A DNA stretch of 64,000 nt from Mobula hypostoma (Eukaryota): assembly GCF_963921235.1 (NCBI RefSeq), contig NC_086097.1, positions 35,094,001 through 35,158,000 on the forward strand, in the 5' to 3' direction. Under the pieces are notes generated by a model. That model ran no database searches. It was not told the origin of the DNA and was given only the letters and a program-made list of their open reading frames with translations. Position numbers and translations under genes: made by a program. This document shows, piece after piece, positions 6,166 through 53,459 of this stretch; the first letter of the stretch is position 1, and every line of letters starts with the position of its first letter.

Positions 6166-6358
6166 ACAAACACAGGAAAATCTGCAAATGCTGGAAATCC
6201 AAAGCAACACACACAAAATTCTGGAGGAACTCAGCAGTTTTGGCAGTATCTGTAGAAAGGAATAAACAGTTACCCTTCAAGGACCCCCAGCCGAAACGTT
6301 GACTGTTCACTCTTTTCCATAGATGCTGCCTGGCCTGCTGAGTTCCTCCAGCATTTTG
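6166..6358. mobile_element. Palindromic Penelope-like pLTR mini-insertion with 17-bp TSD
   Basis: Two PLE 3' tails in inverted orientation around a degenerate hammerhead (CCGAAACGTTGACTG). Flanked by TGAAGTTG(C/T)ATAAGACA at 6149-6165 and 6359-6375. Confidence 0.8.
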
Positions 6359-6431
6359 TGAAGTTGTATAAGACATTGGTGAGGCCTAATTTGGAGTATT
6401 GTGTACAGTTTTGTTCACCCTCCTATAGGAA

Positions 6432-6751
6432 GTGGGCACGTGGCCAAGTGGTTAAGGCATTGGACTAGCGACCTGAAAGTCGAGAGTTTGAGCCCCAGCC
6501 GAGGGAATGTGTTGTGTCCCTGAGCAAGCACTTAATCACACATTGCTCTGTGACGACACTGGTGCCAAGCTGTATGGGTCCTAATGCCCTTCCCTTGGAC
6601 AACATTGGTGTTGTGGAGAGGGGAGACTTGCAACATGGGCACTGCTGGTCTTCCATACAACCTTGCCCAGGCCTGCGCCCTGGAGAGTGAAGACTTTCCA
6701 GGCGCAGATCCATGGTCTCACAAGACTAGTGGATGCCTTTACTTTACTTTA
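6432..6751 (+). mobile_element. tRNA-derived SINE with 10-bp TSD
   Basis: tRNA-like head GGGCACGTGGCCAAGTGGTTAAGGC (A box) and GAGTTTGAGCCCC (degenerate B box). Tail (CTTTA)n. TSD CCTATAGGAA at 6422-6431 and 6752-6761. Confidence 0.85.
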
Positions 6752-6816
6752 CCTATAGGAAAGACGTAAATAAGATTGAAAAGGTACAGAGAAAGTTTAT
6801 AAGGGTGTTGCTGGGA

Positions 6817-7987
6817 ACATAGAATCTACAGCACATTACAGGCCCTTTGGCCCACAATGTTGTGCCAACCATGTAACCTACTCTAGAAACTGCCTGGAAT
6901 TACCACCCTACCACATAGTCCTCTATTTTCCTAAGCTCCATGTACCTATCTAAGAGTCTCTTAAAGTATCTGCCTCCACCACCGTCGCCAGCAGTGCATT
7001 CCACGCATTCACCACTCTGTGAAGAACTTACCCTGACATCCCCTCTGTACCTGCTTCCAAGCACCTTAAAACTATGTCCCTTCATGTTAGCCATTTTAAC
7101 CCTGGGAAAAAGCTTCTGGCTATCCACACAATCAACGCCTCTCATCATCTTATACACCTCTATCAGGTCACCTCTCATCCTCCGTCGCTCCAAGGAGAAA
7201 AGGCCAAGTTCACTCAACCTATTTTCATAAGGCACACTCTCCAATCCAGGCAACATCTTCGTAAATCTCCTCTGTACTCTCCCTATGGTATCCACATCCT
7301 TCCTGTAATGAGGTGACCAGAACTGAACATAGTACTCCAAGTGGGGTCTGACCAAGGTCTTATATAGCTGTAACATTACCTCATGGCTCTTGAACTCAGT
7401 CCTACGGTTGGTGAATGCCAACACACTATACACCTTCTTAACAACACTGTCAACCTGTGCAGCAGCTTTGAATATCCTATGGACCCAGACTTCAAAATCT
7501 CCGATCCTCCACACTGCCAGGAATCTTACCATTAATATTATATGCTGTCTGTAAATTTGACCTACCAATATGAACCACCTCACACTTACCTGTGTTGAAC
7601 TCCATCTACCACTTCTTAGCCCAGTTCTGTGTCCTATTGATGTCCTGTTGTAACTTCTGACAATCCTCCAGGCTATCAACAACACCTCCAACTTTTGCGT
7701 CATCAGCAAACTTACTAACCCACCATTCGACTTCTTCATCCAGGTCATTTATAAAAATCACAAAGAGGAGAGGTCCCAGAACAGATCCCTGTGGAACACC
7801 ACTGGTCACCATCCTCCAAGCAGAATATGAACCATCCACAACCATCCTTTGCCTTCTGTGGGCAAGCCAATTCTGGGTCCACAAAGCAAGGTTCCCTTGG
7901 ATTCCATGCCTCATTACTTTCCCAATGAGCCTTGCATGGGGAACCTTATCAAATAACTTATTGAAATTCATATACACTACATCCACT
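6817..7987 (-). mobile_element. 5'-truncated CR1 LINE (RT C-terminal half)
   Basis: ORFs 7606-7986 (DKVPH, GVPQGSVLGPLLF, KFADD) and 6900-7748 (LYKTLVRPHLEY, RRMRGDLIEVYK). Confidence 0.93.
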
Positions 7988-9929
7988 GAGTTATAAGGAC
8001 CTGAGTTAAAAGGAAAGATTGAATAGATTAGGACTGTATTCTATAGAACGTAGAAGATTGAGAGGAAGTTTGATAGAGGTATACAAAATTATGAGGGCTA
8101 TAGATAGGGTAAATGCAAACAGGCTTTTTCCACTGAGGTGGGGTGAGGCTACAACTGGAAGTCATGGTTAAGGGTGAAAGGTGAAATGTTTAGGGGAATG
8201 TGAGGGGAAACTGCTTCACTCAGAGGGAGGTGAGAGTGTGGGATGAGCTGCCAGTGCAAGTGGTGGAAGTGATTTTGATTTCAATGTTTAAGAGGAGTTT
8301 CAATAGGTACGTGGATGGGAGGAGTATGGAGGGCTGTGGACTGGATGCAGGTTGATGGTACCAGGCAGTTTAAATGGTTGGGCATGGACTAGATGGGCCA
8401 AAGGGCCTGTTTCTGTGCTGTAGTTTTCTATGACTCTATTAATTGGAAAACTACAAATTTAGTCAAATTACGACGGGTTGTAGGGTTGAATAACTGGTGA
8501 GTTCCTTTCATCAGCCAACCTAAGGATCGATCCCTGAACTGATTGAGCTAATCTGAACAAGTGACACCCTTTTTTACAGCTATCTGAAGAAACTCTGTAA
8601 GTTTTATGATTTTTATCTTGGTTTTAATACCACCTCATTAATAGCTGTAAAATAGAGCAGAGGTGAGATGAAAATCAAAGAAGGAAGGGAATGGAAGGCT
8701 GTTTTGTCCTAGACAGTTGTCTGCGCTGATATCAGGAGGACATTTATTTTGGGTATTTAGGTTTCTTGATGAAAATGTAACTGATTGGCTGACATACAAT
8801 TTTTTTAATCAGACAGTTATAATAATTTAAATGTTGACACTGAGGTAAGATAGATATTTTAGGAGAAAGGACAAAATTCTGGGTCAAAAAGTAAGTTTAA
8901 AGGAAGAAGAATTGGAAAAATGATCAAGTTTTCCAGAGAAAATTGATGCTGCGGCTGGTAATATTGTGTTGAAGAGTCAAAGCTGGAATTAGAATTGGTT
9001 CATTGTTGTTACATGTACAGAGATACAGTGAAAAAATTGTCTCTCAATCTGTTCATACAGATCATATCATTGCACAGTGCATTGAGGTAGAACAAGATAA
9101 AACAATAACAGAATGCAAAATAAAGTGTAAGGGCTACATTGAAAGTACAGTGCACGTAAAGTTGGAGAGGCTGTAGGGCAAAAGAAGTCCCAGAAACAAA
9201 GGCTAACAGAACCACCGAGGGACTTAGATATGAGGGTGAGAGTTTCCATTTGGTGGATTTGGAGCAACTACTGTAGATGGTGATGAAGTTCAGAAAGCTC
9301 AGTGCAGAATCTAATCTGCATAAATGACATTTACAAAGGTAGGAGGGTGGAAGGTATCATTGGAAAGACCTGATCTAGAAATACAAGGTCACGAATAAGG
9401 GTTTCAGTTACAGATGCCGGAGGCAGTGGTGGGGCAGAGAACGCTATAGAACCTCTCAGCAATTAGAATAGCAATCTCTAACAATGGATATGCTCTGTTC
9501 ACCTCTCAAAACTTGCACTCCCCCATTTTGCAGTAGTGTATGTCATGTATACAATGTACTGAATCAACTCGCCAAAAACTCCTTTGACATTATCTCCCAA
9601 AACCTACAACCTCTACCACTTAAAAATAAAGGCAGCAGACATAAGGGAATATTACCTTCTGGAAGTTTCCTTCAATGTCGCTCCCCGTGATGATATATTC
9701 TTGTTTCTTTGTGTAGTAGCTGTGTCTACATCCTCAAATATGTTACCAAGTGACCCTGTAGGACCAGATGGGTATGATGGATATCCACTACCACCTAATA
9801 ACTGGTGACTGGACATCCGTTTTAAAAGAATTAGAAAATAAACTACAGATGATAATCCTGCAATATTTTGAGGATTTTTTATTTGTTTTCAAAATTCAAC
9901 TTTGTTTTCAAGGAACCTGAATTAAGAAA

Positions 9930-10070
9930 AGTTTGGAGGAACTCAGCAGGCCAGGCAGCATCTATGGAAAAGAGTAAACAGTCGACATTTCGGACCGAGA
10001 TCCTTCATTAGGACTGGAGAAAAAAGATGAGCAGTCAGAGCAAGAAGGTGGGGGGAGGGGAAGAAAAGAT
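9930..10070 (-). mobile_element. Penelope-like pLTR fragment
   Basis: GGAGGAACTCAGCAGGCCAGGCAGCATCTATGG tail plus hammerhead motif, homologous to 14090-14225. Confidence 0.75.
9979..10016 (-). ncRNA. Degenerate minimal hammerhead ribozyme motif
   Basis: Reverse complement CAGTC-CTAATGA-A-GGATCTCGGTCC-GAAA-TGTC-GACTG. Core G5 mutated; stem II intact. Confidence 0.55.
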
Positions 10071-10349
10071 ATGCCCGTTGATTGTGATATTCAAGCTTCT
10101 TATGATTTGCAAAAGAAGTAAGTTTACTTTGTAGTAGAGCTGCTCGCCAAACAGATTTCTAAAAACTATATCGATTCTTTATTCTGAGTCGCGAAATGCG
10201 GTTGTTCTTCTCATCGTTATTGCTGGGCAATCACTGAAAGATATTAAAAAGTATTTTTCTTGCTTTAGTGAATGTTGGAGATTGAGCTGGTGTTAGAGTC
10301 TGGGTTGATGTGGATCTTATGGCTGAGAAATTAGTGCAAATATATCACA

Positions 10350-11125: not shown

Positions 11126-12930
11126 CCAACATAGATGACCTCACTAAGGGATTGGATTGTGACTGTGGTGTAGTGACATTTCACCAGCAAATCAGTCAGA
11201 TCAGAACTGAGACAAGATCATAGACCAATGAAGATACTAAATTAGTGTAAGTTGTGTTTTTTTGGTATCTATTATCTTTCAAACAATGAGTTACTTTAAA
11301 ACAGGTAACTCGTTTGAACAGTAAAAGAACTTAAATAATAAGCTCCATAGTGCATTGAATTCAGAATGTCTTCAAAGATTCTTGAGAAGAACACTACCTG
11401 TTAGTCCATTTCATTACAATGCAGCCCAATTAGTGGAGTCTTTAAACTAGAGCCATGTCACAGAAGCAATCCCATTTATTTAGTTACAGTGCCACTGATA
11501 CGCAGGTTATGAATTTGGCCAAGAATAACTGGGAGTATGTCAATTTGTCATAGGTTAATGTTATCCTTGGTCTTCAAAGGAAGGGGTAGATAAAGTTGTG
11601 GAATCCATATGTTTAAATGAGCCTGTTGGTTGTAGGTGCCCTCCCAAGTTCAACAACTTTTAGAGAAATTTATTTAGAGAAATCCACCTAGAAGCTGCTC
11701 AGTAAGTGCTTATTTCTCTGCAGCCAACAGAAATCTTCAGGCCTCTTTATAGCTGCTCAGTAGCTCCCTCTCCATGATATCGCTTTCCCTGACTTGTCTA
11801 GTAGCAATACGTTGGGAGAATCAGCAATGCTGATCTCACCCCACCTTATACAGTCTCTTGGCAACTCCTACCACACACTCAGACAGGGAAGATTCTGGTT
11901 GAAGACATTTAGTGGGGATAGACGCTGCTTCTCCATAATTTGCTCATTTAAACACTTCCTGGATCTGGTGATTTATAATGCTGGACGAAGCAAACAGTAC
12001 TCTGGACTAACAGCATCTGCAGAATCTCCTGTGTTTATGATACTTCTAATTCAGTAATATTAACTTTAAAATAAGTAATTTGGCTTCTTTGTTTGCCATG
12101 GTTGCTTACTGTTGACCAATAGCTTTTCCTCCATCTAGTAAATGGAACTGTTTATTGACTGATTTACCCTCAGAATTAGATATTAAACCTGTTCACTAAG
12201 CTTAACATCAGGTAGTGTTATCTGAGCCATTAGTAATTGCTATGCCCTACATATGGTCATTTTTGAAATTTGAATAATAAAGTTTTTATTCTTTTGTGAG
12301 GCTTGTAAATCAATAGCTCAATAGGTTCAATAGGTACATTTAATGTCAGAGAAATGTATACAATATACATACTGAAATTCTTTTTCAGCCTCATACTGGC
12401 ATTATCAGTTATTTTTATACGTATAGAGAGCTCAAGCAATAGGACACATTGAACGATGAACAAACAAACCAATACAAAGACATTCTTCATGTCTATTGTT
12501 AACATTTTGGCTTTAAAATATAACATCTTTCTTGTAGGTAGATGACCAAAACTGCACACAGTACTCTACCAGAAAAAGTGGGATCTCCCAGTGGCCACCC
12601 ATTTTAATTGCACTTCCCATTCCCATTCTGACACGTCTGTCCATGGCCTCCTCTACAGTCGCGACGGTTGGAGGAACAACACCTTGTATTCCTTCTGGGT
12701 AGCCTTCAACCCGATGACATGAACATCGATTTCTCGAACTTCCAGTAATGGCCCCCCACTTCACCATTCCCCATCCCCTTTTCCCTCTCTCACCTTATCT
12801 CCTTGCCTGCCCATCGCCTCCCTCTGGTGCTCCTCTCCCTTTTTCTTTCTCCATGGCCTTCTGTCCTTACCTATTAGATTCCCCCTTCTCCAGCCCAGTA
12901 TCTCTTTCACCAGTTAACGAATAGGGTTCC

Positions 12931-13542
12931 CTGGTCCTCACCTACCACCCCACCAGCCTCCGGGTCCAACATATTATTCTCCGTAACTTCCGCCACCTCC
13001 AATGGGATCCCACCACTAAGCACATCTTTCCCTCCCCGCCTCTCTCTGCATTCCGCAGGGATCGCTCCCTACACAACTCCCTTGTCCATTCGTCCCCCCC
13101 ATCCCTCCCCACTGATCTCCCTCCTGGCACTTATCCGTGTAAGCGGAACAAGTGCTACACATGCCCTTACACTTCCTCCCTTACCACCATTCAGGGCCCC
13201 AAAAAGTCCTTCCAGGTGAGGCAACACTTCACCTGTGAGTCGACTGGGGTGATATACTGCGTCCGGTGCTCCCGATGTGGCCTTTTATATATTGGCGAGA
13301 CCTGACGCAGACTGGGAGACCGCTTTGCTGAACATCTACGCTCTGTCCGCCAGAGAAAGCAGGATCTCCCAGTGGCCACACATTTTAATTCCACATCCCA
13401 TTCCCATTCTGTCATGTCTATCCACGGCCTCCTCTACTGTAAAGATGAAGCCACACTCAGGTTGGAGGAACAACACCTTATATTCCGTCTGGGTAGCCTG
13501 CAACCTGATGGCATGAACATCGACTTCTCTAACTTCCGCTAA
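12931..13542 (+). pseudogene. PLE ORF C-terminus: linker + Cys motifs + GIY-YIG endonuclease, one internal stop
   Basis: Manual translation: LVLTYHP..YPCKRNKCYTC..FTCESTGVIYCVRCSRCGLLYIGET*RRLGDRFAEH..VATHF..LEEQHLIFRLGSLQPDGMN. TGA at 13303-13305 is a CGA>TGA-type change. Frame not shown in the ORF track. Confidence 0.9.
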
Positions 13543-13836
13543 GGCCCCACCTCCCCCTCGTACCCCATCTGTTACTCATTTTTATGCACACATTCTTTCT
13601 CTCACTCTCCTTTTTCTCCCTCTGTCCCTCTGAATATACCTCTTGCCCATCCTCTGGGTCCCCCCCCCATTGTCTTTCTTCCCGGACCTCCTGTCCCATG
13701 ATCCTCTCGTATCCCCTTTTGCCTATCACCTGTCTAGCTCTTGGCTCTATCCCTCCCCCTCCTGTCTTCTCCTATCATTTTGGATCTCCCCCTCCCCCTC
13801 AAACTTTCAAATCCCTTACTCACTCTTCCTTCAGTT

Positions 13837-13872
13837 AGTCCTGACGAAGGGTCTCGGCCTGAAATGTCGACT
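13837..13872 (+). ncRNA. Minimal type-I hammerhead ribozyme motif in PLE pLTR
   Basis: AGTC-CTGACGA-A-GGGTCTCGGCCT-GAAA-TGTC-GACT. Core intact; two C>T changes at CpG positions. Confidence 0.75.
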
Positions 13873-15289
13873 GCGCCTCTTCCTACAGATGCTGCTTGGC
13901 CTGCTGCATTCACCAGCAACTTTGATGTGTGTTGCTTGAATTTCCAGCATCTGCAGAATTCCTGTTGTTTTCCAGTTAACTTACCAGCTCCCTACTTCAC
14001 CCCTCCCCCTCCCAGTTTCACCCATCACCTTTTGTGCTTCATCCTCCCCTCCACCCCACCTTTTAACTCTACTCCTCATCTTTTCTTCTCCAGTCCTGCC
14101 GAAGGGACACGGCCCGAAACGTCCTGTACTTTTTTTTCCATAGATGCTGCCTGGCCTGCTGAACTCCTCCAGCATTTTGTGCGTGTTTCTTGGATTTCCA
14201 GCAACTGCAGATTTTCTCTTGTTCACAATACTACAAGTTAGGTCTCACCAATATCTTATACAACATCAACATAACGTCCCAACTCCTGTTTTATTTATGA
14301 AGGCCAACGTGCCAAAACTTTTCTTTATAACCCTATCTACCTGTGATGCCACTTTCATGGAATTATGGATCTGTATTCCCAGATCCCTCTGTTCTACTAC
14401 ACTCCTCAGTGTCCTACCAGTCACCGTGTAAGTCCTATCCTGGTTTGTCCTCCCAAAGTGCAAAACTCACACTTGTCTGCATTAAATTCTACCTGCCATT
14501 TTCAGCCCATTTTTCCAGCTGGTCCAGAATACGTTGCAAGCTTGATAGTCTTCATCACTGTACACTACACCCCCGATCTTGGTGTCACCTGCAAATTTGC
14601 TGATCCACTTTGCCACATCATCATCCAGGTTGTTGATATAGAAGACAAACATCACTGGACTCAGCACCAATCCCTACAGCACACCACTAGTCACAGGCCT
14701 CCAGGTCAGAGAGGCAACCATCTACTACCACTCCCTGGCTTCTCCCACAAACCCATTGTCTAATCCAATTTACTACCTCATCTTGAATGCCAAGAAACTG
14801 AATCTTCTTGACCAACCTCCCATGTGGGACATTGTCAAATGCCTTGCTAAAGTCCATATAGACAACATCCACTGCCTTGCCTTCATCAATTTTCCTGGTA
14901 ACTTCCTCGAAAAACTCTAAAAGATTGGTTAGATGTGAACTACCACACTCACAGCCATGCTGACTTACCTAAATCAGTCCCTGTCTAACCAAATACTTAT
15001 ATATCGGGTCCCTTAGATCCGATTATTTTTTAGTTGAACCTGTATTTTAAAAAAGCTTTTTATCAGTGGCTTATAATGCAAAGAAAAACAGTAATTGAAT
15101 TAATACATTAAGTCAAATTCTCTAACCACACTGAGTATTTCCTGCATTTTCTCATTTTATTTTGGAAAATATGTCCACTGCGGACTTTGTGAACATTTAG
15201 TTACATGCTCTCAATGATATTTTTTGGACATAGCAAGTTCAGCAGCCATTTTGATTTAGGAATTGTAAATAATAATGGGAACTGATAGA

Positions 15290-15492: not shown

Positions 15493-15656
15493 GTCTGAGT
15501 GATAGAGCAGATGGAGCATAATTTTTTCTGAAGATAGGGAAATCCAGAAAGGTAGATCACCAAAGAACATAAATAAGCAAGAATACTGTTCCAACAATTA
15601 TAGTTATAGAGCACTACAGCACATTACCAGGCCCTTAGGCCCATCTAGTCTGTGCT

Positions 15657-16145: not shown

Positions 16146-17698
16146 GCATAGTCCAACCTACCTGAGTACTATAGCCCTTCATACCTCTCTCGTCCATGTA
16201 CCTATCCAACTTCCCTTCAGTGTTAAAATTCAACTTGCATTTCCACTAGCAGCTTGTTCCACACTCGCACCACACTCTGAGTGATGAAATCTCCCTCAGA
16301 TTCCCCTTAAGTATTTCATCTTTGACTCTAAACCTATAACTTCTAGTTCTAGTTTTAACTCAAATGGAGGGGAAAATTACCTAGAAGAATTCATCTTATC
16401 TATACCTCTTATAATTTTGCAAAACTCTATGTGATCTCCACTCATTCTCCTGTGCTCATGTGAATAAGGTCCTCATCTGTTCTAACATTTCCCTGCTTAC
16501 TTGGGCCCTCAAGTCCCGAAAGCATTATGTTAACTCTCTTCACAGGTATTGCCTGGCCCAGCTCAGAATCTTCTACATTTCAATATTTATCCAGATAAAA
16601 GGAAGCACTTCGACTTGTGTAAGACTGGCAAGATGCTGGAGTCTCTTAACCTGCCCATGGCCTCTGCATCCCCTCGCAGCTCACATTCCCACCCAGTCTT
16701 ATATTACCTGCAAACTATATTTCTCCCTCATCAATGTCATTCATATAAATGTGATTAGCTGGGGTTGAAATGCTGACCCTATGGTAAGCTGCTGGTTGCT
16801 GTTGTTAATCAGAAAAATATCTGTTTACTCCTACACTTGGATTCCAGGCTGCCAACTTCTTGTCTAATTGTAATTTACCACCAATCCATTGTCCTTTCGT
16901 CTCTGCACGCTGCTCTCTCATAAATAATCTCATTGAAAGCTTTCTAAAATACACCCTATTCACTGGTTTCACTTTATTGATTACATTCTCAAAAAATTAC
17001 AGTAAATTCTATAAAAATGATTTCCCTTTAATTAATCAATGCTGTTTTTGACTGTTCTTGTCACTGATTTACAAATTATTTCAGAATGGACAGGGATTTT
17101 CCTCATCATTGATACGAGGTTAACTGGTCCATAATACCATTTTTTCTCACTCCATATATTAGCTATCCTCTAATCAGTAAGAACTGATCCAAAGTCCAAC
17201 GAATGCTGGACACTGACTGCAAGCGCATCTGTTGTTTCTAGGGCCTCTTCCTTAAATATTCTGGGAAGCCGAGTTTTGGGCATTGGGGATTTGCAGTCTA
17301 CCCGTGGGATTCAACAGCTCTCCTTACACTGTTTTCCTCCTAATAGTGATTTTCATCAGCTCCTCAACTTTAGGCTCTAGGTTCCATAACGCTTCTGTGA
17401 GGAAATTTAAACAATAGGGAGGAAAGAAACAAACAAACTCTGGAGGAACTCAATGGGTCATTGAGTGTCTGTGGGGAAAGGAATTGTCAATGTTTCTGTT
17501 TGAAGCCCTATGTAAGGAATAAAAGTGGAGAAGAAAAGATAACTGATGTAGAGAGGAGATGGGTAGGGACGAGACTGAGAGGAATGAGGCCATAGAGAGA
17601 TTTGAAGACAAGGATAAGAATCAACTTAATGCTTATCATTACTAAGAGTCTTGTGGTGGGAGAAGGGGTATGATGCATTTTTGAACTGCTTTCAATGA

Positions 17699-17906
17699 TT
17701 GGCAGTAGTACCCGATAGAAATAGAAATATATAGAAATATAGAAAATAGGTGCAGGAGTAGGCCATTCGGCCCTTCGAGCCTGCACTGCAATGCTGTCTC
17801 GCTTGGCAGTAGTACCCGATAGAAATAGAAATATATAGAAATATAGAAAATAGGTGCAGGAGTAGGCCATTCGGCCCTTCGAGCCTGCACTGCAATGCTG
17901 TCTCGC
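17699..17906 (+). repeat. Perfect 2 x 104-bp tandem duplication
   Basis: TTGGCAGTAGTACCCGATAG...GCTGTCTCGC at 17699-17802 and 17803-17906, identical by eye. Contains a short antisense CR1 3' end. Confidence 0.92.
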
Positions 17907-18437: not shown

Positions 18438-18660
18438 ACGCACAAAATCGGGGAGGAACTATGCATGTCAGGCAGCATCTATGGAAATGCATTAACTGTC
18501 AACGTTTCGGGCCGAGACCCTTCATCACCAGCCATACCCTTCGATGTTATGGGATGCAAGAGAGGACATCTTGAAAAAGTGCTTCCTGAGTTGCTGCGTT
18601 TTTCCAGCATTTTGTGTGTGTTGCTCTGGACTTCTGGCATCTGCAGACTCTCTTGTGTGG
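18438..18660. mobile_element. Inverted pair of PLE pLTR tails, hammerhead remnant at 18498-18527 (-)
   Basis: GTCAACGTTTCGGGCCGAGACCCTTCATCA followed by a sense tail CCAGCATTTTGTGTGTGTTGCTC..GCATCTGCAGA. Confidence 0.7.
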
Positions 18661-20420: not shown

Positions 20421-20849
20421 TGTGTTTAGGTGTACTGAAGGTGTTTTCTTTCTCATTCCCTCCTTCCCTCCCTCTTTCAATGGCCCATCTGCCCATCCCA
20501 TCTGGTTCCCTGTCACCTTCCTGCCTCTGTCCCACACTCCCTCTCCACCCCGTTTCACCCGCTCATCGACATCTCTCCTTCAACCCACCATCCACCAACT
20601 TCTATTCCACTCCTCCCTTGCCGGCTCTTTTCTCTCAGACCCGATGCAGGGTCTGGACTGGAAACATTGAATTAAATCTTGTGCCTGCACGGATGCTCCT
20701 CAAACTTCCAGTATTCTGACCTTTGTCTGACTTATCTTCTCACTCTCTTTCCTTCAACTGGCTACTATGAGGGGGCACAATTTTAAGGAGATTGGAGGAA
20801 AGTATAGGGGGGGAGGTCAGAGAGTTTTTTTTTACGGAGAGTAGTGGGT

Positions 20850-24450
<3,601 letters not shown>

Positions 24451-24719: not shown

Positions 24720-24990
24720 ACACGGAATACAAGAGATTCTGCAGATGCTGGCGATCCAGAGTAATGCACAGAAATTGCCGGAAGAACTCAGCGGGCCAGG
24801 CAGTATCTCTGGAGGGGGAAAATCAGTCAATGTTTCAGGCTGAGACCCTTCATCAGGACTGGAAAGGAAGAAGGATGAAGCCAGAATAAGAGGGTGGAGG
24901 GAGGGAAAGAGGAAGGAGTACAAACTGGCAGGTGATAGGTGAACCTGTGGGGTGGGAGTAAGCGGGAGGGGAGGGGAGGGGGTTATATAG
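24720..24990 (-). mobile_element. PLE pLTR fragment with hammerhead motif (24824-24861)
   Basis: Reverse complement CAGTC-CTGATGA-A-GGGTCTCAGCCT-GAAA-CATT-GACTG plus the conserved PLE tail. Confidence 0.8.
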
Positions 24991-29307: not shown

Positions 29308-29627
29308 TCCTCTGGGTCCCCCCCCCCCACTTTTCCTTCTCCCTGGGCCTCCTGTCCCATGATCCTCTCATATCCCTTTTGCCAATCACCTGTCCAGCTC
29401 TTGGCTCCATCCCTCCCCCTCCTGTCTTCTCCTATCATTTTGGATCTCCCCCTCCCCCTCCCACTTTCAAATCTCTCACCAGCTCTTCTTTCAGTTAGTC
29501 CTGACGAAGGGTCTCGGCCCGAAATGTCGACTGTAGCTCTTCCTAGAGGTGCTGCCTGGCCTGCTGTGTTCACCAGCAACTTTGATGTGTGTTGCCTGAA
29601 ATTCCAGCATCTGCAGAATTCCTTGTG
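29308..29627 (+). mobile_element. Solo PLE pLTR, same family as 13650-13971
   Basis: Near-identical to 13650-13965 and includes a hammerhead. Confidence 0.88.
29497..29532 (+). ncRNA. Minimal hammerhead ribozyme motif
   Basis: AGTC-CTGACGA-A-GGGTCTCGGCCC-GAAA-TGTC-GACT. Confidence 0.78.
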
Positions 29628-30424
29628 TCCACTATGAAGGAGTGCTTTGAGAGGTTGGTGATGTAACATGACAACTCCTGCTTGAGGAGTGACATGGACC
29701 TGCTCCAATTTGCTTTGTGTCATGACAGATCAACAGCAGATGCCAATACATTAGGACTTCACTCAACCCTAGAAAATCTGGATAGTGAGATGCTCTTCAA
29801 TCAGAATGCTCTTCATTGACTACAGCTCTGCATTCAACAATATCATGGCCTCAGAACTAATCAATAAGGCCTTAATTGCTGTTTGTGAAACTAGATCCTT
29901 GATTTTCTTACTTGCAGACACCAGTCAGTTTGGAATGGCAAAAACATCTCCTCCAGAATCACCATCAGCACAGGTGAAGAAGGCTGTATGCATTGCCTCT
30001 TGCTCTACTTGCATTATACTTACGACTGTGACACCATGTACAGCTCCAATGCCATATTTCAGTGTGCTGATGACACCACTGTTGACTGAATCAAAGGTGG
30101 TGACAAATCAGCATATAGGAGGGAGAATGAATATCTGGCGGAATGGTGACACAACAATAATTTCTCACTCAACACCAGCAAAACCAAAGAGCTGATTATT
30201 GACTAGAGGAGTAGGAAACCAGAGGTCCACGAGCCAGTTCTCTTCAGGGGATCAGAGGTGGACAGGGTCAGTGATTGGAGATTCCTTGGCGTTATCATTT
30301 CAGAGAATATGTCCTCGGTCCAGCAAAGGAGGCTCAACAGCAACTTTACTTTCTTAGAAGTTTGCAAAGGTTTGGTATGTTATCTAAAACCTTGACAAAC
30401 TTCTATAGATGCGTGGTGGAGAGT

Positions 30425-31159: not shown

Positions 31160-31195
<36 letters not shown>

Positions 31196-34897: not shown

Positions 34898-35344
34898 TAA
34901 GGAGGAATTCCAGATCCGATAGACAAAAAATATAGGAATAAACTTGGCAAGTATTGGCGAGTTTCCTAAGATCAGTGACAGATTTACTGATTTTAATCTG
35001 TAACAAAATGAATTGGTATTTGGAAAAATATGGAGTATTAAATGAAAGTAGATTTCTGAACAGTCCATGAACACTACCTTATTATTCCTTTCTTTTTGCA
35101 CTATTTAGTGTGTGTCGACAAATTGTGTTTGTCAAACTGAAAGATTTCTCTGATGAAGTCATGAAAAAGCTGGGTGTTGGTATTGTGTTTAATGCTGATA
35201 GTTTGGAGTTTATCCAAGTGTTTGACCATATAAACCACAAAGGCATGATCAGCATTAAAGCTATTCCAATTAAAGAAGCAACTGTTGCATGGGTGTGAAA
35301 TTCAGTAAGAGGTAATAGGCAGAAAGTGTTAGGTCAGAAGGGAG

Positions 35345-38905: not shown

Positions 38906-39040
38906 ACAACAGGAATTCTGCAGATGCTGGAAATTCAAGCAACACACATCAAAGTCGCTGGTGAACGCAGCAGGCCAGGCAGCATCTGTAGGAAGAGGTG
39001 CAGTCGATGTTTCAGGCCGAGACCCTTCGTCAGGACTAAC
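38906..39040 (-). mobile_element. PLE mini-insertion (hammerhead + 3' tail) with TSD
   Basis: Direct repeat TAACAAAATGAGGTAA at 38890-38905 and 39037-39052. Hammerhead at 39002-39037 (reverse complement AGTC-CTGACGA-A-GGGTCTCGGCCT-GAAA-CATC-GACT). Confidence 0.88.
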
Positions 39041-40592: not shown

Positions 40593-40599
40593 GATATGG

Positions 40600-41720
40600 C
40601 TCCCTTTTTTCATCTTTAACAATAGATCCATCCTCACGACTACCATTCTTGATAAGACTCTCAACTGCATCTCTGCTTTACTTCCTCTGTTCTCAGCCTT
40701 CCTCCCTCTTCCAGAGAAAGGATAGGGTTCCATTTGTCCAATCCTTCACCCCATAGGTCTTCTTATTGAACAATAATCCCACGTAATTTCTTCTACAGTG
40801 TACTTTCACCACGGTCCTTCCAACACTCACTTCTTCTTCCCATTTAGCATTCTGACAGAATCACTCTCTCTGTGATTCACCTGATACAACTCTAATCAGC
40901 ACCAATGCCCCTCCATATGCCACTATCCCATAAACAGCAGGAGAGGCAACACCTACACTTCAGGTATTTTTTAAAACTATTTATCTTTCCACCATCTAGG
41001 GCACCAAATGTTCCTTCCAGGTGAAGTAGTGAATGACTTGTATTTCTTGTAATTTAACGTAATACATTTGATATTCATGAAGTGGTCTCCTCTACATTGG
41101 AGAAATCAAATGCCGATTGGATGATCACTTTGTAGAGCACCTTCCTTCATTCTGCAAGGGAGATCCTGAGTTTGCAGTAGTCTGTCACTTTAATTTCCTG
41201 TCCTTTTCCACTCTGATGACTCTGTCCTTGGCCTGTTACAATAAAGTCCAAAATAAAAATGAGGAAGAACACCTTCCCTTCTGAATTGGCACAGTATGTT
41301 TCAGCCCTCAGAATTCAACATCAAATTCAGCAATTTCAGATAACCAGCCTTTCCAGTCTGTAACAGAACTGTTACCTGAGCAACTGGGGTTTGCCAGTGT
41401 TCTCTGTCATTTCAGATTCCCAACAAATGCACTCACAGTCCTAACATTGTTTTCCGCTCTCTACTTTACTATTATCTCCCTCCTCAAATATTTCCTCAGC
41501 TGCAATAAACAAGCTGTTACCACTTTCTCTTCACTTGTGTCATTCATTCTCTCCTGACACAGGCATCTCCTTTATTTAGTTACACTGCTCCTTCTCTGCC
41601 AATTGAAACAAGCTTATTTTCTATTTTTCCCTCAATGTGATGAAACATTAACTCAGTCATCTTCTCCATTGATGCTGCCTGGCTTGCAAAGTATTTGTTT
41701 CTGATTCTAATTTCCAGTTT
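40600..41720 (+). mobile_element. Old degraded Penelope-like element (GIY-YIG region + pLTR)
   Basis: Colinear with 12919-13542: GATAGGGTTCC, CCTTCCAGGTGAAG, GGTCTCCTCTACATTGGAGAA (GLLYIGE), GAGGAAGAACACCTT. Confidence 0.75.
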
Positions 41721-43086: not shown

Positions 43087-43186
43087 TAGTCCTGATGAAG
43101 CATCTCGGCCCAAAACGTCGGCTGTTTACTCTTTTCCATAGATGCTGCCTGGCCTGCTGAGTTCCTCCAGCATTGTGTGTGTGTTC
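43087..43186 (+). mobile_element. 100-bp PLE mini-insertion (degenerate hammerhead + tail) with 10-bp TSD
   Basis: TSD CTGTATATTT at 43077-43086 and 43187-43196. Starts TAGTCCTGATGAAG. Confidence 0.85.
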
Positions 43187-45097: not shown

Positions 45098-45236
45098 GAA
45101 CACAAAAGATTCTGCAGGTGCTGGAAATCAAGAGCAACACATACAAAATGCTGAAGTGACTTAACAGGTCAGGCAGCATCTATGATGAAGAATAAACAGT
45201 TGAAGTTTCAGTTTGATATCCTTTATCAGGACCTTA
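45098..45236 (-). mobile_element. PLE mini-insertion with decayed hammerhead and 9-bp TSD
   Basis: TSD ATTTATTCT at 45089-45097 and 45237-45245. Homology ends at ..CCTTTATCAGGAC (hammerhead 5' boundary). Confidence 0.7.
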
Positions 45237-45294
45237 ATTTATTCTCCCCACTTTCCTCTCAATTGTCCCCTGATTCCACCACCGGGCAGTCCAT

Positions 45295-49095: not shown

Positions 49096-49136
49096 CCCAA
49101 TAACGTGGCCTCCACAGGCATCTGTGGCAGTGAATT

Positions 49137-49402
49137 AGCACAATGTTTCACAGCACCAGAGACCCAGGTTCAATTCCTGCTGCTGTTTGTAAGGAGTTTG
49201 TACGTTCTCACCGTGACCGTGTGGGTTTCCTCTGGGTGCTCTGGTTTCCTCCCACAGTCCAAAGATGTAATGGTTGGTAGATTAATTGGTCATTGTGAAT
49301 TGTCCGGTGATTAGGCTAGGCATTAAACTTGGAGGGGCTGGGCGGCCGGGCTCGAAGGTCCGGAACAGACTATTCTGCGCTTTATCTCAATAAATAATAA
49401 AT
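49137..49402 (+). mobile_element. V-SINE (HE1-like) with tRNA head
   Basis: B box GGTTCAATTCC. V-domain GGGTTTCCTCTGGGTGCTCTGGTTTCCTCCCACAGTCCAAAGA. (AATA)n tail. Confidence 0.85.
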
Positions 49403-49644
49403 AATTCCCCATGTCCATCATCCTCTGGCTGAAGAAATTCTTCCTCATCTCTGTTCTGAACGGACACTGAGCCTGTGTCAATAATAGCTCCTGACCAAAG
49501 TAACGTAGAACAATCTCACTATCTCACTTTTCTACTCTTACCCACGCCTTTTATATATGTTTTTTCTTGATCCTTCGCCAGGTTGGCTTGTGATTGCTGT
49601 GACTGCCACAGCCAGTCATTGTTCTGGCAGATAGGGCTCTATAT

Positions 49645-49724
49645 CAGGGGTTCCCAACCTTTTTTATGCCATGGACTCCTACCAATAACCGAGTGGTCAG
49701 TGGATTCCAGGTTGGGAACCCCTG
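49645..49724. mobile_element. 80-bp hAT (Charlie-type) MITE
   Basis: Perfect 16-bp TIR CAGGGGTTCCCAACCT. Perfect 8-bp TSD CTCTATAT at 49637-49644 and 49725-49732. Confidence 0.93.
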
Positions 49725-50719
49725 CTCTATATACTGTCACTGTGATGACATTGTCTTTAGTTTATATGATAATTACATGATCCTTTGAAGCAATTTTTAA
49801 TTTTAAAAATATCACACCCTGCTTGCAATCTCTTAGCGCTTTACCTTCAGGCCTCATTTCACTAACACTCACATAACCTTCTCACCAGCAGCATGCAAAT
49901 GTCACTCCACTCTTTAAGAAGGGAGGAAGGCAAAACAAAAAAGAAATTATAGGCCAGTTAGCCTAACTGCAGTGGCTGGGTAAGTGTTGGAGTTGACTAT
50001 TAAGGATGAGGTTTTGAGGTACTTGGAGACTAATGATAAAATAAGTCAAAGTCAGCATGGTTTCTGTAAAGGGAAATCTTGCCTGATAAATCTGTTAGAG
50101 TTCTTCAAGGAAGCAACAAGCAGAGTGGATAAAGGAGAGGCAGTGGATGTCATTTACTTGAATTTTCAGAAGGTGTTTGATAAGGTGCCTCACATGAGAT
50201 GGCTTAACAAGATAAAATCCTATGGCGTTACAGGAAAGATACTGGCATGAGTAGAGGAATGGCTGACGGGCAGGAGGCAGCAAGTGGGAATAAAGTGGGC
50301 CTTTTCTGGTTGGCTGCCAGTGACTAGTGGTTTTTGTCAGGGGTTAGTATTGGGACCGCTACTTTTCACATTGTTTGTCAATGATTTGGATAGTGGAATT
50401 GGTGGCTTTGTGGCAAACTTTGCAGTTGATACAAAGATAGGTGGAGGGGTAGTTAGTGCTGAGGAAGCAATGCGATTGCGGCAGGACTTAGACAAGTTGG
50501 AAGACTGGACAAAAAAGTGGCAGATGGAATACAGTGTTGGGAAATGTATGATAATGCATTTTGGTAAAAGGAACAATAGTGTGGACTATTAACTAAATGG
50601 CGAGAAGGTTCAAATATCAAAAACTAAACTCAAAATAATCTGCAGATGCTGTTGTCAAAGGAGCACTCACAATGCGCTGGAGGAACTCAGCAGGTCAGTC
50701 AGCATCAGTTGAAAAGATT

Positions 50720-50755
50720 AGTCGACGTTTCGGGCCAAAACCCTTCGTCAGGACT
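50720..50755 (-). ncRNA. Intact minimal type-I hammerhead ribozyme motif
   Basis: Reverse complement AGTC-CTGACGA-A-GGGTTTTGGCCC-GAAA-CGTC-GACT. Confidence 0.85.
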
Positions 50756-51567
50756 GAAGGAAGAACTTTGGGGAGGGTTTGAAGAATGCTGGTAGTTGAA
50801 AAAAACAGTAACTTGAAAGACAAAGGGGTGGGGGACGGGAAGCAGAAAGGTGATTGGCAGGAGAACAATGCGCAGTAGTAGAAGGAGGCGGAACTATGAG
50901 GGAGGTGATGTGAAATAGGGATAGGGGAAGGGAAGGGGAGGGAATTACCGGAAGTTGGAGAATTCCATGTTCATACCAAGGGGCTGGAGACTACCTAGAC
51001 GGTATATGAGGTGTTGCTCCTCCAACCTGAGTTTAGCCTCATCATTGCAGTAGAGGAGGCCATGTATGGACATATATGAATGGGAATGGGAAGCAGAGTT
51101 GAAGTGGGTGGCTACCGGGAGATCCTGTCTGTTGTGGCGCTTATCCCTGTAAGCGTAAGTGCTACACCTGTCCCTACACCTCTTCTCTTGCCAACATTCA
51201 GGCCCCCAAACAGTCCTTCCAGGTGAGGCAACACTTCACTTGAGAGTCTGTTGGGGTCATCCATTGCATCCGGTGCTCCCGGTGTGGCCTCCTCTACATC
51301 GGTGAAACCAGACGCAGATTGGGGGACCACTTCATTGAGCCCCTTGGTATGAACATAGAATTCTCCAGCTTCCGGTAATTCCCTCCCCCTCCCTTCCTCT
51401 ACCTCTATTTCACATCACCTCCCTCATAGTTCCGACTCCTTCTACTACTGCGCATTGTTCTCCTGGCAATCACCTCCCTGCTTCCCCTCCCCCACCCCTT
51501 TGTCTTTCAAGTTACTGTTTTTTTCAACTACCAGCATTCTTCAAACCCTCCCCAAAGTTCTTCCTTC

Positions 51568-51603
51568 AGTCCTGACGAAGGGTTTCGGCCCGAAACGTCG
51601 ACT
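51568..51603 (+). ncRNA. Intact minimal type-I hammerhead ribozyme motif
   Basis: AGTC-CTGACGA-A-GGGT(TTCG)GCCC-GAAA-CGTC-GACT. Predicted GUC cleavage after 51599. Confidence 0.87.
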
Positions 51604-53459
51604 AATCTTTTCAACTGATGCTGACTGACCTGCTGAGTTCCTCCAGCGCATTGTGAGGGTTCAAACATCAGAGGTGCAGAGGGACTTGGGACTTCTCATG
51701 TACGACTCCCAGAAGGTTAATTTACAGGTTGAGTCTGTGGTAAAGAAGTCAAATGCAATGTTGGCATTTATTTCAAGGGGAATAGAATATAAAAGCAAGG
51801 AGATAATGCTGTGGTTTTATAAGACACTAGTTGGTCTGCACTTGGAGCATTGTCATCAGTTTTGGGCCCCATATCTCAGAAAGGACGTGTTATTATTGGA
51901 GAGTCCAGAGGAGGTTCATGAGGATGATTCTGGGAATGAAGGGGTAAATATATGAGAAGCGTTTGGCAGCTCTCGGCCTGTACTCACTGGAATTTAGAAG
52001 AATGCGTGGGGATCTCATTGAAACCTACCGAATGTTGAAAGCACTAGATAGGGTGGATGTGGAGAGGATGTTTCCTGTGGTGGGGAAATCCAGAACTAGA
52101 GGGCACAGCCTCAAAATTGAGGGATGTCCTTTTAGAACAGAGCGAAGGAGGATTTTTTTTTGCCTAAGAGTAGTGAATCTGTGGAATGCTCTGCCACAAG
52201 CTGCGGTGGAGGCCAAGTCCGTGGGTATGTTTATGTGGAAGTTGATTGTTTCCTGATCAGTCAGGGCATCAAAAGATATGGCGAGACGGAAGGTATATGG
52301 GGTTGAGTGGGATCCGGGATCAGCCATGATGGAATGGCGGAACAGACTCAATGGGCTGAATGGCCTAATTCTGCTCCTATATCTTATGGTTTTATGTCAG
52401 TTCATTGTGATTACTAATCTCAGTGTATGATACCAGAAGAAAACTGTATAGAATTTTTAAGAGAGTAAATATGAATTGTAAGGTTATTGTAAAGTCTTAA
52501 GCTGATGTTACTAGACAATCTGAATGAATTGATACCTTGCTGGAAGCTGGATAAATCCCGGAGAGGCAAGAATCTGCAAGGCTACAGAGAGCGAGCAGTG
52601 AAATGGGACTGTCTAGATTTCTCCTAGTTTGAGCTGGTATATAGTGTCAGTGGATGAAACTGTTTCCTTTTCAGTAGCAATTCCATGACTATGACTTTCT
52701 GTAAATTACTGTCAGCTCACTCACAACCTATTTATTGCAGGCAAGCATTAACTGTACAATATTTGGTTATAAATCTTTCATGTTCTCCTGGTATTTCCAC
52801 TATTTGGTTTGATGTACAAACCAAAAATTATAGAGAATACTTATTATTATTGATTTTGGCAGATTTCATAAACAGATGCGGCTTTTGCTTTTTATTTTAG
52901 TTTCTTTATGTAAGAAATGTAATTTCTGAAAAAAAAAATCCAGTGAATCTGTCCATAACTTAAAAAAGGTAGATTTCCAATTCAGGGAAAAATGCCATAG
53001 GTACAATCTGTCTTTCAAGAAAGACATGAAAAAAAATCAAATAATACTTCTTGTTAGTGTTAGTGCAGCTACGGACAGTAAAGTCTGCATGTACAGAAAT
53101 GGAAATGTCTGTGATCATTGATATTCTGTAATCTATGAAGTAAGCTTTGAAGTAAAAACTGGCTTATCAGGTCTCTCAGCTTTGCCTAAAATGTATTTCT
53201 TACTATGAATTTACAGTAGCAATTGTTGATCTTGGGACAGTGCTAATGCTATTTCAGCTAATAACCAGGCCTCACAAATATGATAAGATGTCATACATTT
53301 TGTGTTCCAGCATGGATGTTCTACATTTTACACCAAGCCTGGTTTGATTTCCTGATCTTCTGCATGTTGCTTGCCTTGACTCTGTCTCTCACCTGACTAG
53401 TCAATACCATCTTTAGAACTGAAATCGATGAATCCAGTGTGGAGGATTACAGACCATTG

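What the first reader, a model, noticed from the sequence alone, without database searches (positions are those of the whole stretch)
6166..51657. Dispersed hammerhead-ribozyme system carried by Penelope-like elements
Seen: about 10 copies of AGTC-CTGA(C/T)GA-A-[stem II]-GAAA-CGTC-GACT at 9979(-), 13837(+), 14091(+), 18498(-), 24824(-), 29497(+), 39002(-), 43088(+), 50720(-) and 51568(+). All lie in the pLTR that follows a GIY-YIG ORF or in solo copies of it. Helix III is reduced to the loopless palindrome ACGT, and there is an extra A between A9 and stem II. Established: PLE pLTRs carry minimal type-I hammerheads with palindromic helix III proposed to cleave as dimers. Inference: at this density the genome holds a very large ribozyme population from at least three pLTR subfamilies (their tails differ at 13873, 14124 and 51604).
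Basis: partly seen in the sequence, partly recalled or inferred. Interest (0 to 1): 0.8.

Follow-up and report, generated by a model that had tools for sequence, protein, structure and literature searches.

The report
Penelope retrotransposon tails with minimal hammerheads
The window is littered with the 3' ends of Penelope-like retrotransposons, each carrying a minimal hammerhead-ribozyme motif of an already described kind, and the surrounding genome holds tens of thousands of intact copies, which is unusual only for its scale.

Summary
All 10 listed sites carry AGTC-CTGAYGA-A-stem II-GAAA-CGTC-GACT. A profile search adds 3 decayed full-length motifs and several partial or tail-only fragments.

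The motifs lie about 300 nt downstream of a GIY-YIG endonuclease reading frame, or in 5'-truncated solo copies. A full-length relative elsewhere in the genome shows the expected layout: pLTR, then a 1043-aa RT plus GIY-YIG ORF, then pLTR, with a motif in each pLTR and a target-site duplication.

Only 2 of the 10 window copies are fully intact. The rest have CpG-decay or core mutations.

Genome-wide, CTGAYGA-N13-GAAACGTC occurs 85,855 times against 23 for the control. I estimate roughly 0.4-1.0 million relics in total.

This is therefore a new member of a known kind. It is notable for its abundance and for a young lineage with open ORFs. Cleavage itself remains untested.

The parts
13837..13872 (+). 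Hammerhead motif, subfamily A. Core boxes intact, ATGT instead of ACGT, T at 11.1. Its tail runs to about 13970.
12919..13970 (+). 5'-truncated subfamily A Penelope-like element: the last ~620 nt of the ORF plus the ~430-nt pLTR. It is 97.6% identical to full-length locus L021, is nested in the 3' UTR of an older B element, and is flanked by the 9-nt duplication CCAGTTAAC.
12925..13539 (+). C-terminal linker (C-x4-C-x2-C) and GIY-YIG endonuclease remnant, with one in-frame stop.
   Evidence: Pfam GIY-YIG E 1.3e-4, 22.7 bits against cutoff 22.6
12564..12745 (+). Endonuclease C-terminal remnant of the older B element that was split by the A insertion.
   Evidence: tblastn 71-85% identity; blastn to L021 83%
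14092..14125 (+). Hammerhead motif, subfamily B, dead: A6 changed to C, and the 3' strand of helix I lost by a 2-nt deletion. Tail runs to about 14226.
29497..29532 (+). Hammerhead motif, subfamily A solo copy. Homology begins at about 29374 and the tail ends at about 29628-29632. Core intact, ATGT.
   Evidence: (D12)
39002..39037 (-). Hammerhead motif, subfamily A solo copy truncated 4-6 nt upstream of the motif. Core intact, ACAT, T at 11.1.
9980..10015 (-). Hammerhead motif, subfamily B, dead (G5 changed to A; ATGT). The third pair of stem II is A-T instead of G-C.
18497..18532 (-). Hammerhead motif, subfamily B, dead (C3 changed to G, helix I lost). It lies head-to-head with a tail-only piece at 18575-18637(+).
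24825..24860 (-). Hammerhead motif, subfamily B. Core boxes intact, but ACAT and TTG in place of ACGT and TCG.
43088..43123 (+). Hammerhead motif, subfamily B solo copy that begins at the motif. Dead: G12 changed to A, and the 5' strand of stem II is broken.
50720..50755 (-). Intact hammerhead motif, subfamily C. Left arm of a head-to-head pair.
   Evidence: (I1)
51568..51603 (+). Intact hammerhead motif, subfamily C, with stem II GGGT/GCCC and a TTCG loop. Right arm of the head-to-head pair.
   Evidence: (I1)
50661..51662 (.). Head-to-head (divergent) pair of subfamily C 3' ends. The arms are 50661-50985 and 51338-51662 (325 nt, 96% complementary). Endonuclease remnants lie at 50954-51148(-) and 51112-51345(+).
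45119..45233 (-). Decayed subfamily B copy (motif plus tail).
6189..6361 (.). Head-to-head pair of tails whose junction lies inside the hammerhead motif. Only half motifs remain.
   Evidence: (I18)
40976..41296 (+). Endonuclease remnant of an older, more distant family (40% identity). About 350 nt downstream, at 41630-41692, lies a tail whose stem II is missing.
23723..23799 (+). Decayed partial motif plus tail.
17432..17518 (-). Strongly decayed motif plus tail.

Best explanation
**What it is.** These are the 3'-terminal modules of Penelope-like retrotransposons (PLEs). Each module is a 3' UTR of about 430 nt, called a pLTR when it is repeated. The PLEs are of the endonuclease-bearing, Neptune-like type.

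Each module carries a minimal type-I hammerhead motif, made of:
- a 4-5 bp helix I;
- the CUGAYGA box;
- one extra A;
- a 4-bp stem II with a tetraloop;
- the GAAA box;
- a helix III reduced to the self-complementary ACGU;
- the cleavage triplet GUC.

A tail of about 100 nt follows, and insertions end there.

**How the copies arose (shown or directly supported).** They were made by target-primed reverse transcription from the tail. This explains:
- the 5' truncation;
- the frequent head-to-head partners;
- the nesting of one copy in another;
- the target-site duplications.

Once inserted, the copies decay neutrally. Decay is fastest at the motif's four CpG sites.

**How the motif most likely works (inferred from published work on the family, not shown here).** A single copy cannot form helix III. 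Two copies, either the two pLTRs of one transcript or two RNAs, pair ACGU with ACGU and swap helix I strands. With help from the element's protein, they cut after GUC.

This would trim multi-unit transcripts and could allow circles to form. I put about 45% on cleavage being the selected function in vivo, and about 95% on the identity of the elements.
For: **Motif.**
- All 10 listed sites carry the motif.
- The core descriptor gives 85,855 genome matches against 23 for the control.

**Element context.**
- A GIY-YIG remnant lies upstream, with Pfam at 22.7 bits against a cutoff of 22.6.
- The full-length copy L021 has a 441-nt 5' pLTR that is 96.8% identical to its 3' pLTR.
- Each L021 pLTR holds a motif.
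- L021 has a 1043-aa ORF with RVT_1 (27.1 bits) and GIY-YIG (19.7 bits).
- L021 is flanked by a 13-14-nt duplication.

**Retrotransposition signatures.**
- A nested insertion has a 9-nt duplication.
- Among the first 100 genome matches there are 10 divergent pairs within 2 kb and 0 convergent pairs.

**Constraint on the motif.**
- Between subfamilies the motif is 78-92% identical, against 3-68% upstream.
- Core positions that no helix needs are 88-100% conserved in 36 copies: C3, U4, A9, the extra A, A13 and A14.
- The weak columns are all CpG sites.

**Recent activity.**
- The endonuclease peptide has 227,945 first-look candidates.
- The top 150 of these are 97-100% identical.
- Five of the 150 have open frames of 1021-1054 aa.

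**Literature.**
- PMC4209133 (parts 1-2 read) describes the same architecture, the dimer model and low in vitro activity.
- PMC11167929 (passages) shows protein-assisted cleavage in an Anolis PLE.
Against: - No cleavage data exist for these sequences.
- No RNA run was available.
- Thermodynamic prediction does not favour the active form. The monomer prefers a rod-like hairpin in which GACG of the core pairs with CGUC, at -12.7 kcal/mol. The swapped hammerhead dimer scores -16.3, which is worse than two such hairpins (-25.4) and worse than the best duplex (-30.3).
- The tail block is as conserved as the motif, 0.84 against 0.85. In one of five between-subfamily comparisons the tail (0.82) beat the motif (0.78).
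- The sample was ascertained with a profile that contains both the motif and the tail block.
- The commonest form has U at 11.1: 69 of the first 100 matches against 27 with C. This weakens the closing pair of stem II.
- The L021 insertion starts about 310 nt upstream of its 5' motif, so that template was not cut.
- None of 15 truncated copies begins at the cleavage site.
- In the Anolis PLE, ribozyme mutants did not affect insertion in vitro (PMC11167929).
- Stem II is nearly one sequence genome-wide, so there is almost no covariation support.
Confidence: 0.85

Rival explanations
1. The 37-nt block is kept as a structured RNA element, not for cutting. It would be a rod-like hairpin plus tail that the element's RT/EN protein binds, or that positions reverse-transcription initiation. 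On this reading the hammerhead-like boxes are a recognition surface.
For: - The predicted best fold of the monomer is the rod hairpin, -12.7 against -8.7 kcal/mol for the hammerhead-like fold.
- The motif and tail are conserved together as one module of about 135 nt.
- The k-mer depth of public contigs peaks on exactly these two blocks (descriptive only).
- The U11.1 form is the most prolific.
- Cleavage was dispensable for insertion in vitro in Anolis (PMC11167929, passages).
Against: - The positions that stay invariant are the ones a hammerhead needs, yet they sit in internal loops of the hairpin: CU, AA and GAAA, at 88-100%.
- Related PLE motifs do cleave, weakly as dimers (PMC4209133) or with protein (PMC11167929).
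- In that same work, ribozyme mutants did not change insertion. That also argues against a role in RT recognition.
Confidence: 0.25
2. The short solo copies are not truncated PLEs. They are a separate non-autonomous, SINE-like or retrozyme-like element (motif plus tail) mobilised in trans by PLE proteins.
For: - Several copies begin within a few nt of the motif: 39037(-), 43088(+), and sample copies in L008, L009 and L013.
- Profile start positions cluster at 44-65 in 15 of 48 hits.
- A 2026 preprint (abstract and Results part 1 read) argues that animal retrozymes derive from PLE pLTRs.
Against: - No tandem arrays of the unit occur in the window or in the 12 samples.
- 5' ends spread over the whole range, from inside the ORF to inside the tail.
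- Profile starts near 50-65 partly reflect subfamily divergence of the upstream sequence rather than true ends.
- The solo copies share subfamily-specific upstream sequence with ORF-bearing copies (D12).
Confidence: 0.12
3. The hammerhead is a selfish passenger of PLEs with no benefit to the element. This was raised as a possibility by Craig et al. 2021.
For: - PLE clades without canonical hammerheads proliferate well (PMC8557442, passages).
- The most prolific lineage here has a weakened 10.1-11.1 pair.
Against: - The motif stays nearly identical across three subfamilies whose upstream pLTR has diverged to 3-68% identity.
- It is universal in canonical PLEs according to PMC4209133 and PMC8557442.
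- A passenger of 37 nt has no means of its own to persist.
Confidence: 0.08
4. The resemblance to a hammerhead is due to chance, or to repeat-family identity alone.
For: Rfam's hammerhead models do not match. A 3-mismatch scan of the boxes is at chance level.
Against: - All 13 core nucleotides, the G10.1 position, the A15.1/U16.1 pair and the GUC triplet are in register.
- There are 85,855 matches against 23 for the control.
- The same variant architecture is documented for PLEs across animals (PMC4209133).
Confidence: 0.02

Closest known systems
Minimal hammerhead motifs (min-HHRs) of metazoan Penelope-like elements (Cervera & de la Peña 2014, PMC4209133; Lünse, Weinberg & Breaker 2017, seen only as a citation in PMC6765202)
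   Same: - Type-I topology with a short helix I.
- No helix III hairpin, only palindromic 15.2-16.2.
[quoted passage not shown]
- G at 10.1.
- Location in both pLTRs of PLEs.
- Mostly dispersed single copies from truncated elements.
- Pairs close together on opposite strands.
   Different: - Stem II here is 4 bp, against the 7-8 bp (Schistosoma) or 6 bp (D. virilis) given in that paper.
- The paper stresses extreme sequence variability within a genome. Here all 100 of the first 100 descriptor hits are one stem II sequence or single-step variants of it.
- The majority form has U at 11.1.
- The count is larger: 85,855 core-intact, against about 4,000 in coelacanth and about 9,000 in Xenopus tropicalis in that paper (different descriptors, so only roughly comparable).
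Hammerhead of the Poseidon element PAc of Anolis carolinensis (PMC11167929)
   Same: - A vertebrate EN+ PLE with pLTR-ORF-pLTR layout.
- The motif lacks helix III.
- Insertions end in a defined tail where reverse transcription starts.
   Different: - In PAc the ORF starts inside stem II. Here the likely start codon lies about 35 nt beyond the tail.
- PAc has biochemical data (protein-assisted cleavage, not needed for insertion in vitro). Nothing of the sort exists for these copies.
Dimeric type-I hammerheads of newt satellite 2, Schistosoma Sm-alpha and animal non-LTR retrozymes (PMC7229834; PMC6155905)
   Same: An unstable helix III with a palindromic end, so activity is expected only when two copies pair.
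   Different: - Those are canonical motifs with loop 1-loop 2 tertiary contacts, in tandem arrays of 150-450 bp, and they yield circular RNAs.
- The copies here have an open helix I with no loop 1.
- They are dispersed rather than arrayed.
- They sit at the end of an autonomous element.

Membership tests
Hammerhead ribozyme, minimal type-I variant of PLEs | Core boxes C3-U4-G5-A6-N7-G8-A9 and G12-A13-A14 in register | tested here: met
   Both boxes are intact in 6 of 10 window copies. Genome-wide, 85,855 matches keep both boxes and ACGTC, against 23 for the control.
Hammerhead ribozyme, minimal type-I variant of PLEs | Cleavage triplet N-U-H after an A15.1/U16.1 position | tested here: met
   T at 16.1 and C or T at 17 in 10 of 10 window copies.
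Hammerhead ribozyme, minimal type-I variant of PLEs | Stem II closed by G10.1-C11.1, preceded by one unpaired nucleotide | tested here: inconclusive
   The extra A is present in 10 of 10 and G10.1 is present. But 11.1 is C in 7 of 10 window copies and in only 27 of the first 100 genome matches; 69 of those 100 have T, giving G-U or a shifted A-U pair.
Hammerhead ribozyme, minimal type-I variant of PLEs | Helix III absent as a hairpin; positions 15.1-16.1 form a palindrome able to pair between two copies | tested here: met
   ACGT in 5 of 10 window copies; the other 5 have its CpG decay products. The domain-swapped dimer can be drawn, but scores only -16.3 kcal/mol.
Hammerhead ribozyme, minimal type-I variant of PLEs | Site-specific self-cleavage | not testable with these tools
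No RNA run on record, and only contigs could be laid.
Rfam hammerhead families (covariance models) | Score at or above the gathering threshold | tested here: not met
   0 matches at gathering score. No hammerhead family matches even at E<=10. The models expect a helix III hairpin.
Penelope-like element, endonuclease-bearing | A single ORF with a reverse transcriptase followed by a C-terminal GIY-YIG endonuclease | tested here: met
   The L021 ORF of 1043 aa has RVT_1 at residues 534-696 (27.1 bits, just under the 29.6 cutoff) and GIY-YIG at 946-1020 (19.7 bits). The window remnant scores GIY-YIG 22.7 bits against a cutoff of 22.6. An RT phylogeny against telomerase or other PLE clades was not done.
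Penelope-like element, endonuclease-bearing | Pseudo-LTRs from partial tandem copies, strong 5' truncation, and an inverted 5'-truncated partner | tested here: met
   - L021 has a 441-nt direct repeat, 96.8% identical.
- Window copies are truncated from inside the ORF to inside the tail.
- Head-to-head pairs lie at 50661-51662 and 6189-6361.
- In the genome list there are 10 divergent and 0 convergent pairs within 2 kb.
Penelope-like element, Neptune-type linker | CX2-5CxxC motif between RT and EN (as described in PMC8557442) | tested here: met
   The translation reads C-KRNK-C-YT-C just before the GIY-YIG domain. Clade assignment by phylogeny was not done.
Animal non-LTR retrozyme | Head-to-tail arrays of 150-450-bp units, each with a canonical type-I hammerhead with loop-loop contacts | tested here: not met
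   No such arrays occur in the window or the 12 samples. The one same-strand pair 255 nt apart (13837 and 14092) is a nested insertion of two subfamilies.

The most novel reading that the evidence does not exclude
This genome may hold the densest natural population of hammerhead motifs yet seen in a vertebrate, about 25 core-intact per Mb and perhaps half a million or more relics. They would come from a PLE lineage that is still mobile, since several copies have open frames over 1000 aa at 97-98% identity.

That lineage succeeded with a weakened ribozyme (U at 11.1) and with templates left uncut at the motif. Self-cleavage would then not be the step that drives PLE proliferation. Instead the motif plus tail would act as one 3' recognition or circularisation module.
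Probability: 0.25. Interest if true: 0.5.

Novelty: new member of a known kind. Interest (0 to 1): 0.3.

Why it matters
What hammerheads do in Penelope-like elements is an open question. They are universal in canonical PLEs but barely active in vitro, and they were not needed for insertion in the one reconstituted system.

A vertebrate genome with tens of thousands of intact motifs, three or more subfamilies and apparently young ORF-bearing copies is a convenient natural system for in vivo tests. These include end-mapping of RNAs, circle detection, and comparing the C11.1 and U11.1 lineages.

For annotation, these motifs are invisible to Rfam. They are better flagged as PLE 3' ends than as independent ribozyme genes.

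Tried and rejected
- **Rfam scans.** Gathering score and E<=10 both gave no hammerhead. The weak miRNA and snoRNA rows are below threshold and were disregarded.
- **3-mismatch box scan.** At chance level, so dropped.
- **RNA evidence.** No RNA holder is listed. The four runs laid are contigs of uncertain type, so they show nothing about transcription, ends or cleavage. They show only that k-mer depth peaks on the motif and tail blocks.
- **Larger unbiased genome sample.** I worked with 120 kb, so the copy-number estimate is rough.
- **5' ends by whole-genome DNA search.** Only the best 40 full-length matches are scored, so this is useless for truncation mapping.
- **PDB sequence search of the ORF.** No match.
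- **Earlier notes of this scan.** Nothing found.
- **Lünse et al. 2017.** Not held.
- **Older family at 40976-41692.** I hoped it would give a divergent motif with compensatory changes, but its stem II is deleted.
- **Same-strand pair 13837/14092 as a functional tandem dimer.** Rejected: it is a nested insertion of two subfamilies and both motifs are mutated.
- **pLTR start codon.** I considered that the ORF might start in the motif or tail, as in Anolis PAc. In L021 the frame is open through the tail, but the ATG there is copy-specific, and the likely start lies beyond the tail.

Full report
**Observation**

On the RNA-sense strand it reads AGTC-CTGAYGA-A-GGGTYTCGGCCY-GAAA-CGTC-GACT.

It is not a chance pattern:
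- The strict form CTGAYGA-N(4-34)-GAAAC occurs 4 times in the window against 0.43 expected, and 0 of 100 shuffles reach 4.
- A 35-place version occurs 22,500 + 22,582 times in the 3.48-Gb genome that holds the window, against 0 + 0 for the reversed control.
- A loose 3-mismatch scan is at chance level, 106 against 97.9 expected, and was not used.
- Rfam reports no hammerhead at its gathering scores or at E<=10. Its models expect a helix III hairpin, so this is not surprising.

**Inventory in the window**

A profile of the ten copies finds 20 hits at E<=1e-3 in the window. The additions are:
- decayed motifs near 45197-45233(-), 23723-23759(+) and 17466-17500(-);
- a weaker hit at 20627-20677(+), E 0.019;
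- a head-to-head pair at 6189-6361 whose junction lies inside the motif;
- tail-only pieces.

Of the ten listed copies:
- both core boxes are intact in 6;
- ACGT is kept in 5, and the other 5 have ATGT or ACAT, which are CpG transition products;
- the extra A is present in all 10;
- helix I is intact in 7.

Only 50720-50755(-) and 51568-51603(+) are intact throughout. The window therefore holds mostly dead relics.

**Context**

Translation upstream of 13837 gives a C-x4-C-x2-C linker and a GIY-YIG domain with one in-frame stop. Pfam scores it at E 1.3e-4, 22.7 bits against a cutoff of 22.6, read through with X.

tblastn with that peptide finds remnants at five places:
- 12564-12745(+);
- 12925-13539(+);
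- 40976-41296(+), at 40% identity;
- 50954-51148(-);
- 51112-51345(+).

The motif lies about 200-300 nt beyond the stop codon. No ORF of 90 aa or more gave a GIY-YIG hit in the first Pfam pass. The RT and AP-endonuclease hits there belong to unrelated LINEs.

The other copies are 5'-truncated solo copies. Three of them begin within a few nt of the motif.

The two same-strand motifs at 13837 and 14092 are not a tandem unit:
- A subfamily A element at 12919-13970, 97.6% identical to L021, is inserted into the 3' UTR of an older B element.
- The insertion is flanked by the 9-nt duplication CCAGTTAAC.

**A full-length relative**

I fetched one genomic copy, L021, to see the architecture:
- A 441-nt direct repeat, 96.8% identical, flanks a 1043-aa open frame.
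- Each repeat contains the motif and the tail.
- The 5' repeat starts in the last codons of a preceding ORF copy.
- The whole more-than-unit insertion is bounded by a 13-14-nt duplication.
- The ORF has RVT_1 (27.1 bits, just below the 29.6 cutoff) and GIY-YIG (19.7 bits).
- It has no sequence match in the PDB.
- It has 445 relatives at E<=1e-10 among 8000 scored candidates.
- The nearest named relatives are uncharacterised proteins of a bamboo shark, at 71% and 67% identity over 74% and 66% of the query part. The host is therefore probably a cartilaginous fish. This is an inference only.

This is the pLTR-ORF-pLTR layout of Penelope-like elements. Because the insertion begins about 310 nt upstream of its 5' motif, its RNA template had not been cut there.

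**Population size and age**

The descriptor CTGAYGA-N13-GAAACGTC matches 42,890 + 42,965 times against 10 + 13 for the control. All 100 listed matches have the same stem II or single-step variants of it. Position 11.1 is T in 69, C in 27 and another base in 4.

I took twelve arbitrarily placed 10-kb samples:
- The profile finds 28 hits, with 9 of the 12 samples having at least one.
- Of these, 23 include the motif region.
- That is about 0.19 per kb, or roughly 0.4-1.0 million relics genome-wide. The sample is small, so this is a rough figure.

The endonuclease peptide has 227,945 first-look candidates. The 150 that were scored are 97-100% identical, and 5 of them have open frames of 1021-1054 aa. 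At least subfamily A is therefore young.

**Is the motif under constraint?**

Between subfamilies A, B and C:

| Region | Identity between subfamilies |
|---|---|
| Motif | 78-92% |
| 120 nt upstream | 3-68% |
| Linker | 6-62% |
| Tail | 56-82% |

In one of the five comparisons the tail (0.82) exceeds the motif (0.78).

Over 36 copies, the mean frequency of the commonest base per column is as follows:

| Region | Mean frequency |
|---|---|
| Motif | 0.85 |
| Tail block | 0.84 |
| Linker | 0.73 |
| Upstream | 0.51-0.57 |

That sample was found with a profile containing the motif and tail, which inflates both values.

The weak columns in the motif are its four CpG sites. Core positions that no helix requires stay at 88-100%: C3, U4, A9, the extra A, A13 and A14. 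The caveat is that the motif and tail are conserved together.

**Structure**

The monomer's predicted best fold is a rod-like hairpin in which GACG of the core pairs with CGUC, at -12.7 kcal/mol. The hammerhead-like monomer scores -8.7. The domain-swapped dimer has helix III as ACGU with ACGU and both helix I stems between molecules; it scores -16.3. Two hairpins together score -25.4 and the best duplex scores -30.3.

Nearest-neighbour energies ignore the core's tertiary contacts. Even so, the result agrees with the low in vitro activity reported for this class, and with the need for protein.

**Arrangement**

Among the first 100 genome matches, 10 divergent (-,+) pairs lie within 2 kb, four of them 0-35 nt apart. 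No convergent pair and no same-strand pair lies that close (counted by hand).

The window pairs at 50661-51662 (325-nt arms, 96%) and 6189-6361 are of this kind, as are several pairs in the samples.

None of 15 truncated copies starts at the cleavage site.

**Comparison with what is known**

- **Cervera & de la Peña 2014** (PMC4209133, parts 1-2 of 4 read) describe minimal hammerheads in both pLTRs of PLEs.
  - They report dispersed single copies, pairs on opposite strands, a dimer model and low activity.
  - Their counts are about 4,000 in coelacanth and about 9,000 in Xenopus.
- **Craig et al. 2021** (PMC8557442, passages) describe truncation, partial tandems, inverted 5' copies and tails.
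- **The Anolis PAc study** (PMC11167929, passages) found protein-assisted cleavage that was not needed for insertion in vitro. It also found no RNA-seq ends at the cut site.
- **A review** (PMC6765202, passages) summarises the dimer idea and cites Lünse et al. 2017. I could not read that paper, and it may hold larger counts or close variants.
- **A 2026 preprint** (abstract and Results part 1 read) links animal retrozymes to PLE pLTRs and samples one cartilaginous fish. Its supplements were not seen.

A search for hammerhead ribozyme, Penelope and shark together found only a review, in which 'shark' refers to the shape of the motif. I do not claim that this species' motifs are unpublished.

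**Verdict**

The finding is real and correctly interpreted, but it belongs to a described class. What is particular here is:
- the scale;
- the near-uniform stem II;
- the predominance of U at 11.1;
- a lineage with open ORFs.

Whether the motifs cut RNA in this animal remains untested.

Noticed in passing
window 57006-58400: A 1.4-kb low-complexity array of CT-rich units with 8-12-nt period. It is open in three + frames only because of its composition.
   Followed up: no
window 59090-62976, also 2764-3444 and 7609-8040(-): Fragments of LINE-type retrotransposons (AP endonuclease plus RVT_1), unrelated to the Penelope-like copies. Several are repeated within the window (D6, D9-D11, I2-I7).
   Followed up: partly
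window 50954-51345: In the head-to-head subfamily C pair, the + arm lacks about 55 codons of the endonuclease. The - arm carries exactly that stretch in inverted orientation. This looks like a template-switch or twin-priming type rearrangement rather than two independent insertions.
   Followed up: partly
window 9980-10015(-): The third pair of stem II is A-T instead of G-C, with both sides changed. This is the only candidate compensatory change seen among the copies.
   Followed up: no
window motif positions CTGACGA / ACGTC: GACG of the core box is complementary to CGUC at the cleavage site. Each monomer can therefore lock itself into an inactive rod-like hairpin. The N7 = C or U variants both keep this pairing.
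   Followed up: partly
window 35186-35261(-): A hairpin with weak likeness to the mir-155 family (27.8 bits against a gathering score of 56, E 0.2). Most likely noise.
   Followed up: no
L021 1105-1118 and 5073-5086; window 12910-12918 and 13973-13981: The target-site duplications of two subfamily A insertions differ in length (13-14 nt and 9 nt) and share no obvious motif.
   Followed up: no
window 17840-17890: The tail-only copy at 17895 is preceded by GGCCATTCGGCCCTTCGAGCC-like sequence, which may belong to another repeat family.
   Followed up: no
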